Shown one piece after another: positions 1,151 to 42,533 of a DNA stretch of 64,000 nucleotides. Origin of the DNA: Escherichia coli (GTDB taxonomy: Bacteria > Pseudomonadota > Gammaproteobacteria > Enterobacterales > Enterobacteriaceae). The notes under the pieces were generated by a model. That model worked only from the letters and a program-made list of their open reading frames with translations. It did not search any database and had not been told where the DNA came from. The DNA is taken from NCBI RefSeq assembly GCF_001677475.2, contig NZ_CP015229.1. The stretch is one strand, 5' to 3'. The number at the start of each line of letters is the position of its first letter. The stretch's first letter is position 1. The position numbers and the translations under genes were made by a program.

Positions 1151-1243
1151 ACAACGCCGAAGCTGTTTTGGCGGATTGAGAGAAGATTTTCAGCCTGATA
1201 CAGATTAAATCAGAACGCAGAAGCGGTCTGATAAAACAGAATT

Positions 1244-1363
1244 TGCCTGGCGGCCGTAGCGCGGTGGTCCCACCTGACCCCATGCCGAACTCAGAAGTGA
1301 AACGCCGTAGCGCCGATGGTAGTGTGGGGTCTCCCCATGCGAGAGTAGGGAACTGCCAGGCAT
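1244..1363 (+). rRNA. rrfB: 5S ribosomal RNA
   Basis: 120-nt sequence UGCCUGGCGGC...GGAACUGCCAGGCAU, canonical enterobacterial 5S. Confidence 0.97.
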
Positions 1364-1366
1364 CAA

Positions 1367-1410
1367 ATAAAACGAAAGGCTCAGTCGAAAGACTGGGCCT
1401 TTCGTTTTAT
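1367..1410 (+). terminator. rrn operon T1 intrinsic terminator
   Basis: Hairpin AAACGAAAGGCUCAGUCGAAAGACUGGGCCUUUCGUUUU followed by U-rich tract; matches the classic rrnB T1 sequence used in cloning vectors. Confidence 0.9.
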
Positions 1411-1543
1411 CTGTTGTTTGTCGGTGAACGCTCTCCTGAGTAGGACAAATCCGCCGGGAGCGGATTTGAACGTTGCGAAGCAACGGCCCGGAGGGTGGCG
1501 GGCAGGACGCCCGCCATAAACTGCCAGGCATCAAATTAAGCAG

Positions 1544-2694: not shown

Positions 2695-3656
2695 AGGATA
2701 ATACCGTTCCGCTGAAATTAATCGCGCTGTTAGCGAATGGCGAATTTCACTCTGGTGAGCAGTTGGGTGAAACGTTAGGAATGAGCCGGGCGGCTATTAA
2801 TAAACACATTCAGACACTGCGTGACTGGGGCGTTGATGTCTTTACCGTTCCGGGTAAAGGATACAGCCTGCCTGAGCCTATCCAGTTACTTAATGCTGAA
2901 CAGATATTGGGTCAGCTGGATGGCGGTAGTGTAACTGTGCTGCCAGTGATTGACTCCACGAATCAGTACCTTCTTGATCGTATCGGAGAGCTTAAATCGG
3001 GCGATGCCTGCGTTGCAGAATACCAGCAGGCTGGCCGTGGTCGCCGGGGTCGGAAATGGTTTTCGCCTTTTGGCGCAAACTTATATTTGTCGATGTTCTG
3101 GCGTCTGGAACAAGGCCCGGCGGCGGCGATTGGTTTAAGTCTGGTTATCGGTATCGTGATGGCGGAAGTATTACGCAAGCTGGGTGCAGATAAAGTTCGT
3201 GTTAAATGGCCTAATGACCTCTATCTGCAGGATCGCAAGCTGGCAGGCATTCTTGTGGAGCTGACTGGCAAAACCGGCGATGCGGCGCAAATAGTCATTG
3301 GAGCCGGGATCAACATGGCAATGCGTCGTGTTGAAGAGAGTGTCGTTAATCAGGGGTGGATCACGCTGCAGGAAGCGGGGATCAATCTCGATCGTAATAC
3401 GTTGGCGGCCATGCTAATACGTGAATTACGCGCGGCGCTGGAACTCTTCGAACAAGAAGGATTGGTACCTTATCTTTCGCGCTGGGAAAAGCTGGATAAT
3501 TTTATTAATCGCCCAGTGAAACTTATCATTGGTGATAAAGAAATATTTGGCATTTCACGCGGAATAGACAAACAGGGCGCTTTATTGCTTGAGCAGGATG
3601 GAATAATAAAACCCTGGATGGGCGGTGAAATATCCCTGCGTAGTGCAGAAAAATAA
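2691..3656 (+). CDS. birA: Biotin-[acetyl-CoA-carboxylase] ligase / bio operon repressor
   Basis: 321-aa ORF with N-terminal HTH and biotin ligase GRGRRGR motif; ATGA overlap with murB stop. Confidence 0.96.
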
Positions 3657-10532: not shown

Positions 10533-10570
10533 GCCAACCCTTCCGGTTGCAGCCTGAGAAATCAGGCTGA

Positions 10571-10602
10571 TGGCTGGTGACTTTTTAGTCACCAGCCTTT
10601 TT
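10571..10602 (+). terminator. rplL-rpoB intergenic attenuator (partial terminator)
   Basis: Hairpin GGCUGGUGACUUUUUAGUCACCAGCC followed by UUUUUG, in the 319-nt rplL-rpoB spacer. Confidence 0.75.
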
Positions 10603-24794: not shown

Positions 24795-24960
24795 CCAAAA
24801 AGTTAAGGACGTGGCTTGTCAGACGACGGATGAAGCAAGAGACGATCGCCGCAGGGGCGATGCGATAGCAGATTAACTCTTGTTCCCTTCGCAGGTATTA
24901 GCCTGATCAGGTTCCGCGGATCCCGAATAAACGGTCTCAGCCAGTTAAGGCACTCCGACA
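24795..24960 (-). promoter_or_regulatory. TPP riboswitch (thi-box) in the thiC leader
   Basis: Minus-strand leader contains ...GGAGUGCCUUAACUGGCUGAGACCGUUUAUUCGGGAUCCGCGGAACCUGAUCAGGCUAAUACCUGCGAAGGGAACAAG..., carrying the conserved CUGAGA core and flanking helices of the TPP aptamer. Confidence 0.8.
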
Positions 24961-24984
24961 AGAAATTAGCCCCACACACGGGGC
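24960..24984 (-). terminator. Putative rsd terminator
   Basis: Minus-strand hairpin GCCCCGUGUGUGGGGC followed by UAAUUUCUU. Confidence 0.45.
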
Positions 24985-36814: not shown

Positions 36815-38356
<1,542 letters not shown>

Positions 38357-38517: not shown

Positions 38518-38710
38518 CTTGCTGGTTTGTGAGTGAAAGTCACCTGCCTTAATATCTCAAAATTCATCTTCGGGTGATGTTTGAGATATTTGCTCTTTAA
38601 AAATCTGGATCAAGCTGAAAATTGAAACACTGAACAACGAAAGTTGTTCGTGAGTCTCTCAAATTTTCGCAACACGATGATGAATCGAAAGAAACATCTT
38701 CGGGTTGTGA

Positions 38711-41612
<2,902 letters not shown>

Positions 41613-41709
41613 ACAACGCCGAAGCTGTTTTGGCGGATGAGAGAAGATTTTCAGCCTGATACAGATTAAATCGACAGGTCAGAACATGACGTGTTGATAA
41701 AACAGAATT

Positions 41710-41829
41710 TGCCTGGCGGCCGTAGCGCGGTGGTCCCACCTGACCCCATGCCGAACTCAGAAGTGAAACGCCGTAGCGCCGATGGTAGTGTGGGGTCTCC
41801 CCATGCGAGAGTAGGGAACTGCCAGGCAT
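41710..41829 (+). rRNA. rrfE: 5S ribosomal RNA
   Basis: 120-nt sequence identical to the 5S copy at 1244-1363. Confidence 0.97.
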
Positions 41830-41832
41830 CAA

Positions 41833-41876
41833 ATAAAACGAAAGGCTCAGTCGAAAGACTGGGCCTTTCGTTTTAT
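41833..41876 (+). terminator. rrn T1 intrinsic terminator (rrnE copy)
   Basis: Same hairpin and U-tract as at 1367-1410. Confidence 0.88.
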
Positions 41877-41983
41877 CTGTTGTTTGTCGGTGAACGCTCT
41901 CCTGAGTAGGACAAATCCGCCGGGAGCGGATTTGAACGTTGCGAAGCAACGGCCCGGAGGGTGCCAGGCATCAAATTAAGCAG

Positions 41984-42014
41984 AAGGCTCAGTCGGAAGA
42001 CTGGGCCTTTTTGC
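41984..42014 (+). terminator. rrn T2-like terminator (rrnE copy)
   Basis: Hairpin AAGGCUCAGUCGGAAGACUGGGCCUUUUUGC. Confidence 0.7.
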
Positions 42015-42032
42015 ATTGGCGCAGAAAATAAT

Positions 42033-42057
42033 GCCGGATGCGACGCTGGCGCGTCTG
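42033..42057. repeat. Truncated REP-like element
   Basis: GCCGGATGCGACGCTGGCGCGTC matches the 5' half of the REP consensus. Confidence 0.5.
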
Positions 42058-42089
42058 CTCCAGCTTACGCAGGCACGATAGGGGGCAGC

Positions 42090-42533
42090 TTATTCCCCCA
42101 CATATGCCAGATTCAGCAATGGATACGGTTTCCCCAAATCGTCCACCTCAGAGCGTCCCGTAACCTTAAAACCCACCTTCTTATAGAACCCAACCGCCTG
42201 CTCATTTTGCTCATTAACATTGGTTGTCAGTTCCGGGGCCATTGAGAGCGCATGCTCCACCAGCATCCGACCCACGCCGCAGCCGCACACATCAGGATCG
42301 ATAAACAGCGCATCCATATGCTGCCCACTTAACAACATAAACCCAACCGGCTGATCCCGTTCATTAACCGCGACCCACAACGGTGCTTCCGGCAGAAAGG
42401 AACGCACCAGCTCTTCCAGCTCGGCCCGATACTCCGCTGATAAAAAATCGTGGGTGGCATCGACAGATCGACACCAAATCGCAACGAGTTCTTCCCCTTC
42501 CTCATGCCGCGAGCGGCGAATACTAATAACCAT
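42090..42533 (-). CDS. yjaB: GNAT-family N-acetyltransferase
   Basis: 147-aa ORF with acetyl-CoA-binding motif (GCGVGRMLV). Confidence 0.9.
   Translation of the reverse strand: MVISIRRSRHEEGEELVAIWCRSVDATHDFLSAEYRAELEELVRSFLPEAPLWVAVNERDQPVGFMLLSGQHMDALFIDPDVCGCGVGRMLVEHALSMAPELTTNVNEQNEQAVGFYKKVGFKVTGRSEVDDLGKPYPLLNLAYVGE

What the first reader, a model, noticed from the sequence alone, without database searches (positions are those of the whole stretch)
41830..42020. The two rrn 3' regions in the window differ: 25-bp indel and T2 hairpin variants
Both operons carry the identical T1 terminator, but the segment before T2 reads GGCCCGGAGGGTGGCGGGCAGGACGCCCGCCATAAACTGCCAGGCATCAAATT after rrfB and GGCCCGGAGGGTG-CCAGGCATCAAATT after rrfE (25 bp missing). 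The T2 stems also differ (GGCCCGGTCGG versus GGCTCAGTCGG), and both differ from the T2 sequence I recall from K-12-derived vectors. Both copies retain a short duplicate of the 5S 3' end before T2, a footprint of past recombination between rrn operons.
Basis: seen in the sequence. Interest (0 to 1): 0.15.

Follow-up and report, generated by a model that had tools for sequence, protein, structure and literature searches.

The report
Ordinary variation in rRNA operon terminators
The two ribosomal RNA operons in this window end in the known double-terminator cassette that carries a small RNA gene, and their differences are ordinary strain-level variation plus one private 26-base deletion that may even be an assembly error.

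Summary

Both operons end in the known enterobacterial layout: 5S, terminator T1, a tRNA-linked repeat (TLR), a copy of the 5S 3' end, then terminator T2. In K-12 this TLR is the rrA/rrB/rrF small-RNA gene family (PMC8144298).

- **rrnB copy:** identical to K-12 rrB between T1 and T2. Its T2 hairpin is an allele found in 440 of 5426 complete E. coli genomes, mostly O157:H7.
- **rrnE copy:** the same cassette, where K-12 has a different terminator plus yjaA. Its T2 allele differs by two pairing-preserving transitions.
- **The 26-bp deletion:** it lies between imperfect 9-nt repeats. It removes stem-loop 4 and one of two loop-presented GGA (CsrA) motifs.
- **How rare it is:** the exact junction is absent from all 5426 genomes, from JGI metagenome contigs, and from the two nearest draft relatives. 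Those relatives keep the same T2 allele with the 26 bp intact. It is therefore recent slippage or an assembly or sequencing error.
- **The cassette:** T1 plus TLR is a 168-bp unit bounded by an 18-bp repeat. Removing it from window rrnB gives O157:H7 rrnB exactly (420/420).

Low interest.

The parts
1244..1363 (+). 5S rRNA gene of rrnB (rrfB), 120 nt
   Evidence: Rfam 5S match at 1246-1361. Ends set by alignment to K-12 rrfB.
1367..1410 (+). Terminator T1 of rrnB: 20-bp stem, GAAA loop, followed by a T-rich tail
   Evidence: Terminator scan. Fold energy -31.6 kcal/mol, z-score -11.5. Identical to K-12 rrnB T1.
1411..1518 (+). TLR body, the rrB-type sRNA gene. Predicted stem-loops: SL1 1430-1441, SL2 1446-1468, SL3 1471-1485, SL4 1497-1515. 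Carries five GGA motifs.
   Evidence: 100% identical to K-12 rrB. Folds. Described in PMC8144298. Present in 3945 of 5426 E. coli genomes.
1498..1523 (+). The 26 nt present in rrnB and missing in rrnE. It spans all but the first base of SL4 (GGCGGGC-AGGAC-GCCCGCC, 1497-1515) with GGA motif 5, and is flanked by the imperfect repeats TGGCGGGCA and TGCCAGGCA.
1519..1536 (+). 18-nt exact copy of the 5S 3' end plus trailer (AACTGCCAGGCATCAAAT). This is the TLR hallmark and the proposed RNase E signal.
   Evidence: PMC8144298.
1546..1572 (+). Terminator T2 of rrnB: hairpin GGCCCGGTC-GGAA-GACTGGGCC followed by TTTTT
   Evidence: Fold energy -26.1 kcal/mol. This allele occurs in 440 of 5426 genomes.
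41710..41829 (+). 5S rRNA gene of rrnE (rrfE), identical to the rrnB copy
41833..41876 (+). Terminator T1 of rrnE, identical to the rrnB T1
41877..41961 (+). TLR body at rrnE. SL1-SL3 are retained and SL4 is missing, leaving four GGA motifs.
41963..41964 (+). Junction of the 26-bp deletion (GGAGGGTG|CCAGGCA)
   Evidence: Absent from 5426 genomes, from metagenome contigs and from the two nearest relatives.
41962..41976 (+). Copy of the 5S 3' end, shortened to 15 nt (TGCCAGGCATCAAAT)
41986..42012 (+). Terminator T2 of rrnE: hairpin GGCTCAGTC-GGAA-GACTGGGCC followed by TTTTT
   Evidence: Fold energy -23.9 kcal/mol. The same allele is the single terminator of rrnB in KE55 and 118UI, and sits at rrnE in draft relative L050; the other relative, L049, has it with one substitution in the 3' arm.
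42013..42089 (.). REP-like flank between T2 and yjaB. There is no yjaA here.
   Evidence: Shared with the K-12 rrnA and rrnG flanks. K-12 has yjaA at this position. 'REP-like' is my reading of the sequence and was not tested.
42090..42533 (-). yjaB (GNAT acetyltransferase), the unique flank that identifies the locus as rrnE

Best explanation
**What it is.** Both regions are the known dual-terminator 3' end of enterobacterial rrn operons. The order is 5S gene, terminator T1, a tRNA-linked repeat encoding an RrB-type small RNA, an 18-nt copy of the 5S 3' end, then terminator T2.

**How it works (shown in K-12 by others; inferred here from sequence identity).**
- T1 stops about 87% of rRNA transcripts.
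- Read-through transcribes the repeat.
- T2 stops the rest.
- RNase E cuts 3 nt after the 5S end and after its downstream copy. This releases a 173-nt RNA and a shorter form of about 115 nt.
- These RNAs bind Hfq and, through GGA motifs, CsrA.

**The T2 differences.** They are ordinary alleles of a highly polymorphic hairpin at the edge of the rrn repeat. The two window alleles differ by two transitions. Each replaces a Watson-Crick pair with a G-U wobble, so both keep a 9-bp stem.

**The indel.** It is a derived 26-bp deletion in the rrnE copy, lying between imperfect 9-nt direct repeats (TGGCGGGCA and TGCCAGGCA) that bracket a GC-rich hairpin. That is the signature of slipped-strand deletion. 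It removes stem-loop 4 and one of the two loop-presented GGA motifs. The predicted product is 147 nt instead of 173 nt.

**Whether the slippage is real.** It may have happened in the cell or during sequencing or assembly. I put this at about 60:40 in favour of a real deletion.

**The cassette.** T1 plus the repeat is a 168-bp unit. Strains gain or lose it through the 18-bp repeat or by conversion from another operon.
For: - **Sequence identity.** Window rrnB is identical to K-12 rrB from 5S to the 5' side of T2.
- **Literature.** TLR hallmark, RrA/B/F expression, Hfq and CsrA binding, five GGA motifs with two in loops, and T1 87% and T2 100% termination all come from PMC8144298.
- **Folds.** The T2 hairpins are stable and comparable: -26.1 (rrnB), -23.9 (rrnE) and -22.7 (K-12) kcal/mol. 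Fifteen hairpin alleles from the collected loci all fold into 7-9 bp stems.
- **rrnB T2 allele.** It is in 440 of 5426 genomes, where it is the sole terminator after rrfB in O157:H7. It also occurs in a dual context in strain 2020CK-00188.
- **rrnE T2 allele.** It is seen at rrnB of KE55 and 118UI and at rrnE of draft relative L050. The other draft relative, L049, carries it with one 3'-arm substitution.
- **The deletion is derived.** The 26 bp are present in all 13 other dual-terminator (T1-TLR-T2) copies aligned or printed here: K-12 rrnA, B and D, window rrnB, and nine other dual-terminator copies. The one further dual copy examined, ECZP248 rrnB, is not among these 13.
- **Recurrence.** ECZP248 rrnB carries a different 26-bp deletion between the same repeats, with the crossover at another position. 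This points to recurrent slippage.
- **Lost motif.** There are five GGA motifs in the rrnB copy and four in the rrnE copy.
- **Cassette.** Window rrnB minus 1351-1518 matches O157:H7 and CUWW06 rrnB-murB at 420 of 420 positions.
- **Other species.** The T2 module follows a genuine 5S gene directly in E. whittamii, Escherichia sp. E1V33 and Kosakonia.
Against: - The exact rrnE junction is found nowhere else: 0 of 5426 complete E. coli genomes and 0 JGI metagenome contigs.
- The two nearest draft relatives are 99.5% and 99.7% identical to the window over 12.8 kb with the 26-nt gap counted (about 99.7% and 99.9% by mismatches alone). They share the rrnE flank and the T2 allele (L049 with one 3'-arm substitution) and have the 26 bp intact. 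The deletion could therefore be an error in the source assembly.
- Expression, processing and CsrA binding were not tested for this genome.
- Even in K-12 the phenotypes of rrA/B/F deletion or overexpression are modest.
- The other five rrn operons of the source genome could not be examined.
Confidence: 0.8

Rival explanations
1. The 26-bp deletion is an assembly, polishing or PCR/Sanger artefact. Polymerase or assembler slippage across the GC-rich hairpin inside a multi-copy repeat would produce it. The true rrnE copy would then be full length.
For: The junction is unique: 0 of 5426 genomes and 0 metagenome contigs. The two nearest relatives have the same flank and the same T2 allele (one of them with a single 3'-arm substitution), with the 26 bp intact. 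The deleted segment is a 7-bp GC hairpin flanked by short repeats, which is a classic substrate for in vitro slippage.
Against: Collapse of repeats makes copies identical, not different. An independent natural 26-bp deletion between the same repeats exists in ECZP248, so the event does happen in deposited genomes. The relatives differ from the window by 0.1-0.3%, which leaves time for a real private mutation.
Confidence: 0.35
2. The deletion arose in another rrn operon of this genome and was copied into rrnE by gene conversion, or the reverse. It would then be shared by several of the seven operons.
For: rrn 3' modules clearly move between operons. T2 alleles occur at different operons in different strains. 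The last 1150 nt of the 23S gene and the 5S gene are identical between the two window operons.
Against: The rrnB copy in the same window is intact. The other five operons lie outside the window and the source genome could not be identified.
Confidence: 0.1
3. The T1-T2 spacer is the decayed remnant of a second 5S gene, as in rrnD (5S-tRNA-5S), and the deletion is further decay of a pseudogene.
For: The spacer ends with the 5S 3' end. The fold predicts a closing helix reminiscent of 5S helix I. The K-12 rrnD cassette follows a second 5S gene.
Against: The Rfam 5S model gives no match in the spacer even at E<=10. The spacer is highly conserved: 100% identical to K-12 here, and reported as conserved across 12 genera. 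The RNA is expressed and binds proteins.
Confidence: 0.05
4. The deletion is an adaptive change that produces a functionally distinct small RNA with lower CsrA valency from rrnE.
For: It removes precisely stem-loop 4 and loop GGA motif 5. In K-12, changing GGA motifs 1, 2 and 5 abolished CsrA binding in vitro.
Against: It is private to one assembly. About 27% of E. coli genomes lack the element altogether. K-12 phenotypes are modest. Nothing indicates selection.
Confidence: 0.05

Closest known systems
rrB / rrA / rrF, the sRNA genes between T1 and T2 of E. coli K-12 rrnB, rrnA and rrnD (Stenum et al. 2021, PMC8144298)
   Same: Same position, same T1, same 108-nt body (100% identity for the window rrnB copy), same 18-nt copy of the 5S end, and five GGA motifs.
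   Different: The T2 hairpin alleles differ from K-12. A copy sits at rrnE, where K-12 has none. The rrnE copy lacks 26 nt (SL4 and GGA motif 5) and keeps only 15 nt of the hallmark repeat.
tRNA-linked repeats (TLRs; Egan and Landy 1978, Rudd 1999, as cited in PMC8144298), including RtT of the tyrT operon (Rfam RF00391)
   Same: The element lies directly downstream of a stable-RNA gene and ends in a copy of that gene's 3' end.
   Different: The match to the Rfam RtT model is weak (17 bits against a gathering score of 45). The rrn-linked members are the only TLRs predicted to bind CsrA.
Single-terminator rrn 3' ends (K-12 rrnG; O157:H7 rrnB; KE55 rrnB and rrnE; E. whittamii, Escherichia sp. E1V33, Kosakonia)
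   Same: The same 'CATCAAAT-trailer-AAGGC-hairpin-GCCTTTTTGC' module as T2, with the same two hairpin families (GGCCATCC...GGATGGCC and GGCYCRGTC...GACTGGGCC).
   Different: In those operons the module follows the real 5S gene directly. In the window it follows the 18- or 15-nt copy of the 5S end, 168 or 142 nt further downstream.
CsrA-sequestering sRNAs (CsrB/CsrC, RsmX/Y/Z)
   Same: GGA motifs presented in hairpin loops. There is a weak rsmX-model match over SL2 to T2 (18.3 bits, E=0.17).
   Different: Far fewer sites, roughly ten-fold weaker competition than CsrB in vitro, no promoter of its own, and below every Rfam threshold.

Membership tests
Intrinsic (Rho-independent) terminator | GC-rich stem-loop | tested here: met
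   T1 -31.6, T2(rrnB) -26.1 and T2(rrnE) -23.9 kcal/mol, with z-scores of -5.2 to -11.5. All 15 collected hairpin alleles fold.
Intrinsic (Rho-independent) terminator | U-tract immediately 3' of the stem | tested here: met
   TTTTT at 1568-1572 and 42008-42012. The simple scanner listed only T1. I attribute this to the T2 stem extending by A-U pairs into the T run.
Intrinsic (Rho-independent) terminator | Measured termination | not testable with these tools
   K-12 values (T1 87%, T2 100%) are quoted from Orosz 1991 through PMC8144298. The window T2 alleles have not been measured.
tRNA-linked repeat (TLR) | Lies immediately downstream of a tRNA or rRNA gene in the same operon | tested here: met
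   Both copies start 4 nt after the 5S gene.
tRNA-linked repeat (TLR) | Last 18-19 bp identical to the 3' end of the upstream gene (rrnB copy) | tested here: met
   AACTGCCAGGCATCAAAT at 1351-1368 and 1519-1536.
tRNA-linked repeat (TLR) | Last 18-19 bp identical to the 3' end of the upstream gene (rrnE copy) | tested here: not met
   Only 15 nt are identical (TGCCAGGCATCAAAT, 41820-41834 and 41962-41976). The deletion removed the first 3 nt. The copy is a truncated derivative of a member.
RrA/B/F sRNA genes | Located between T1 and T2 of an rrn operon, with more than 98% identity to the K-12 copies | tested here: met
   The rrnB copy is 100% identical. The rrnE copy is identical apart from the 26-nt gap.
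RrA/B/F sRNA genes | Five GGA motifs and conserved stem-loops 2-4 | tested here: not met
   This status is for the rrnE copy, which has four GGA motifs and no SL4. The rrnB copy meets the feature, with five GGA motifs and SL2-SL4 predicted.
RrA/B/F sRNA genes | Expressed by T1 read-through, cut by RNase E, binds Hfq and CsrA | not testable with these tools
   Shown only for K-12.
Rfam RtT (RF00391) | Covariance-model score at or above the gathering score | tested here: not met
   17 bits against 45, E=0.52.
5S rRNA pseudogene | Detectable similarity of the spacer to the 5S covariance model | tested here: not met
   No 5S match in 1375-1600 at E<=10.

The most novel reading that the evidence does not exclude
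The rrnE-linked copy is a genuine natural variant of the RrB-type small RNA that lacks stem-loop 4 and so has reduced CsrA valency. Two further points bear on this. The T1+TLR cassette varies from absent (about 27% of complete E. coli genomes) to several copies per genome. Independent deletions hit the same hairpin. Together this would mean the rrn-linked CsrA/Hfq-binding sRNAs are dispensable, fast-evolving accessories rather than a conserved growth-rate signal, which bears on the open question of what RrA/B/F do.
Probability: 0.25. Interest if true: 0.3.

Novelty: already known. Interest (0 to 1): 0.12.

Why it matters
It matters little for this window. The region is the textbook rrnB T1-T2 cassette used in cloning vectors. 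Its spacer is a described sRNA gene, and the T2 differences are common alleles.

Two modest points go beyond the finding.

1. **Strain variability.** The 168-bp T1+sRNA cassette is far more variable between E. coli strains than the K-12-based literature implies. It is absent from about 27% of complete genomes. It is present at rrnB in about 46% and at rrnE in about 15%.
2. **Natural deletions.** Deletions that remove the CsrA-binding stem-loop 4 occur. These could serve as natural mutants for testing whether these sRNAs matter.

The rrnE 3' end is also where the yjaA phylotyping marker sits or is missing.

Tried and rejected
- **Spacer as a decayed 5S gene.** The Rfam 5S model gives no match. 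Rejected.
- **Spacer as a member of an Rfam family.** There are only sub-threshold matches: BTnc231, rsmX and RtT.
- **Genome-collection scan with a gapped pattern spanning the indel.** 0 matches. The plain 25-mer found 9 loci. In eight of them, from other species and mostly at draft contig ends, T2 follows a genuine 5S gene; in the ninth (Erwinia sp. JUb26, L014) it follows a 5S-end-like fragment. None was the source genome.
- **Metagenome scan for the exact junction.** 0 matches.
- **Counting the rrnE T2 allele with a 36-mer.** The count is contaminated by the near-identical T1 of rrnD, so only a lower bound is available. Ninety genomes carry the 30-mer TGCCAGGCATCAAATTAAGCAGAAGGCTCA.
- **Identifying the source genome so as to align all seven operons.**
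  - The best complete E. coli genome is only 99.0% identical over 24 kb.
  - The YjaB and MetA proteins are common alleles.
  - The rare ZraR and AceK alleles led only to draft relatives.
  - The other five operons could therefore not be examined.
- **Simple terminator scanner.** It did not list T2. I take this as a limit of the scanner's rule, not evidence against T2.

Full report
**Setting.** The window runs from the 3' part of one rrn operon to a complete second operon.
- The first operon contributes 23S 1-1150 and 5S 1244-1363. It is followed by murB, which identifies it as rrnB.
- Between the operons lie the tufB, rpoBC, thi and purHD genes.
- The second operon has 16S at 36815-38356, tRNA-Glu, 23S at 38711-41612 and 5S at 41710-41829. 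It is followed by yjaB on the minus strand, which identifies it as rrnE.
- The genome belongs to the E. coli group, but no complete RefSeq E. coli genome is closer than 99.0% over 24 kb. I could not identify the source or see its other five operons.

**The observation.** The two 3' regions are identical from the 5S gene through T1 and the spacer up to GGAGGGTG.
- rrnB then has 26 extra bases (1498-1523).
- The T2 hairpins are GGCCCGGTC-GGAA-GACTGGGCC in rrnB and GGCTCAGTC-GGAA-GACTGGGCC in rrnE. Both are followed by TTTTT.
- K-12 T2 is GGCCATCCTGACGGATGGCC, so both window alleles differ from the vector sequence.
- A copy of the 5S 3' end precedes T2. It is 18 nt exact in rrnB and 15 nt in rrnE.
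- The similarity runs on through the terminator hairpin for 52 and 49 nt at 87% and 90% identity. In this genome T2 therefore looks like a paralogue of the 5S end plus T1.

**What the region is.** A literature search found that it is already described (PMC8144298).
- The T1-T2 interval of K-12 rrnA, rrnB and rrnD is a tRNA-linked repeat. This family's hallmark is an 18-19 bp copy of the 3' end of the upstream stable-RNA gene.
- It encodes the small RNAs RrA, RrB and RrF. They are made by read-through of T1, which is quoted as 87% efficient, against 100% for T2.
- The RNAs are detected as 173-nt and roughly 115-nt species. The ends map 3 nt after the 5S end and 3 nt after its copy, and the authors propose both as RNase E sites.
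- They bind Hfq and CsrA in vitro. Five GGA motifs are present, two of them in hairpin loops, and changing motifs 1, 2 and 5 abolished CsrA binding.
- The window rrnB copy is 100% identical to K-12 rrB between T1 and T2. I therefore transfer this mechanism by inference.
- Weak sub-threshold Rfam matches to RtT (a TLR) and to rsmX (a CsrA sponge) fit this picture but prove nothing.
- The 5S model finds nothing in the spacer, so I reject the idea of a decayed second 5S gene.

**K-12's seven operons.**
- rrnA, rrnB and rrnD have T1-TLR-T2.
- rrnG has a T2-type terminator directly after 5S.
- rrnC and rrnH continue into tRNA genes.
- rrnE has an unrelated terminator followed by yjaA and then yjaB.
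- The window's rrnE is therefore built differently from K-12's: it has the cassette, no yjaA, and a REP-like flank shared with K-12 rrnA and rrnG.

**T2 is a polymorphic module.**
- In Escherichia whittamii, Escherichia sp. E1V33 and Kosakonia, the module 'CATCAAAT-trailer-AAGGC-hairpin-GCCTTTTTGC' follows a genuine 5S gene directly.
- Among E. coli genomes that share the window's exact YjaB or MetA protein, rrnE ends in one of three ways: a single terminator with at least eight hairpin alleles, the dual cassette with 168-nt spacing, or the yjaA type.
- Fifteen hairpin alleles collected here fall into two stem families. All fold into 7-9 bp stems.
- The window's two alleles differ from the perfect stem GGCCCAGTC/GACTGGGCC (seen in L038) by one transition each. 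Each transition creates a G-U wobble.
- The rrnB allele occurs in 440 of 5426 genomes, mostly O157:H7, where it is the only terminator after rrfB. It occurs in a dual context in strain 2020CK-00188.
- The rrnE allele is the single rrnB terminator of KE55 and 118UI. At least 90 genomes carry its 5' arm in the T2 context.
- These are real, common alleles and should be functionally equivalent: -26.1, -23.9 and -22.7 kcal/mol for rrnB, rrnE and K-12.

**The cassette comes and goes.**
- Removing 1351-1518 (168 bp, from one 18-bp repeat to the next) from window rrnB gives a sequence identical at 420 of 420 positions to O157:H7 PV15-279 and CUWW06. The comparison runs from the 5S 3' part through T2 into murB.
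- By coverage of my queries, about 2516 of 5424 genomes have the dual arrangement at rrnB and 828 of 5426 have it at rrnE. These are inferences from the 80% coverage cut-off and were not checked genome by genome.
- The 108-nt TLR core is found in 3945 of 5426 genomes. Copy number ranges from 1 to 9, with a median of 2.

**The 26-bp indel.**
- All 13 other dual-terminator copies I aligned or printed contain the 26 bp: K-12 rrnA, B and D, window rrnB, and nine other dual-terminator copies. The one further dual copy examined, ECZP248 rrnB, is described next. The rrnE state is therefore a deletion.
- It lies between TGGCGGGCA and TGCCAGGCA, two 9-nt repeats that match at 7 of 9 positions and sit 26 nt apart. 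They bracket the hairpin GGCGGGC-AGGAC-GCCCGCC.
- One genome, ECZP248, has a different 26-bp deletion between the same repeats, at rrnB, with the crossover at the other end of the repeat. This supports recurrent slipped-strand deletion.
- The window's deletion removes stem-loop 4 and loop GGA motif 5, leaving four GGA motifs and a predicted 147-nt RNA. It also shortens the hallmark repeat to 15 nt.
- The exact junction is absent from all 5426 complete genomes and from JGI metagenome contigs.
- Using rare ZraR and AceK protein alleles, I found draft assemblies of the nearest relatives. They are 99.5% and 99.7% identical to the window over 12.8 kb with the 26-nt gap counted, or about 99.7% and 99.9% by mismatches alone.
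- Two of these contigs run from yjaB into rrnE. They show the same flank and the dual cassette with the 26 bp intact. L050 has the identical T2 allele; L049 differs by one 3'-arm substitution.
- The deletion is therefore private to this assembly. It is either a recent mutation or an assembly or sequencing slip, and I cannot decide without reads. I put it at roughly 60:40 in favour of a real deletion.

**Verdict.** Nothing here is new in kind. Interest is low.

Noticed in passing
window 42013-42089 (compare K-12 locus L002 361-880): yjaA, the Clermont phylotyping marker, is absent between rrnE and yjaB. K-12 has a different single terminator plus yjaA at this spot. The presence or absence of yjaA therefore coincides with a switch in the type of rrnE 3' end.
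   Followed up: partly
window 1210-1232 versus 41670-41700: The 23S-5S spacer differs between the two operons: CAGAACGCAGAAGCGGTCTG in rrnB and CGACAGGTCAGAACATGACGTGTTG in rrnE. The last 1150 nt of the 23S gene and the whole 5S gene are identical between the operons.
   Followed up: no
window 1351-1518; loci L029 and L031: T1 plus the TLR is a clean 168-bp presence/absence unit bounded by the 18-bp repeat AACTGCCAGGCATCAAAT. With it removed, window rrnB matches O157:H7 rrnB-murB at 420 of 420 positions.
   Followed up: yes
E. coli complete-genome collection: The rrB-type TLR core is missing from about 27% of complete E. coli genomes. It ranges from 1 to 9 copies in the others, with a median of 2. 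Some plasmid hits and high copy numbers may be cloning-vector T1T2 cassettes; I did not check this.
   Followed up: partly
locus L028 (E. coli ECZP248 rrnB), around 3001-3053: An independent 26-bp deletion in the TLR (GGTGGCGGGCA|TCAAAT). It lies between the same imperfect repeats as the window's deletion, with a different crossover point.
   Followed up: yes
K-12 locus L005 (rrnD): The 3' end of rrfF and the TLR copy of it both read CCAGACATC (G to A), whereas rrnA and rrnB have CCAGGCATC in both places. The hallmark repeat therefore co-varies with its own upstream gene.
   Followed up: no
K-12 locus L004 (rrnG flank) compared with window 42013-42130: The K-12 rrnG downstream flank carries the same REP-like sequence as the window's rrnE flank. 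It also carries a fragment resembling the 3' end of yjaB (CCCACATATGCCAGATTCAGCAACGGATACGG). This suggests a past exchange between the rrnE and rrnG flanks.
   Followed up: no
alignment A2, columns 31 and 60 (T1 lower stem): There is a compensatory G-C to A-T change in T1 between strains: ACGAAAGG...CCTTTCGT versus ACAAAAGG...CCTTTTGT.
   Followed up: no
locus L012 (Escherichia whittamii): A much shorter T1-downstream element. It lacks the equivalents of SL2 and SL3, and the sequence jumps from CTCCTGAG to CAGGACGCCCCGCC.
   Followed up: no
locus L049, T2 3' arm: One close relative has GACGGGGCC instead of GACTGGGCC in the T2 3' arm. This breaks one stem pair. It is either a further allele or an error in the draft assembly.
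   Followed up: no
window 24867-24967 (-), 10537-10598 (+), 38595-38703 (+): Other Rfam matches above the gathering score are a TPP riboswitch, P26 and StyR-44. From gene order I take these to lie upstream of thiC, in the rplKAJL region, and in the spacer between tRNA-Glu and 23S, respectively. All are expected for this region.
   Followed up: no
window 1255 and 41721: Both 5S genes have C at position 12 (GGCCGTAG), where K-12 rrfB and rrfE have A (GGCAGTAG).
   Followed up: no
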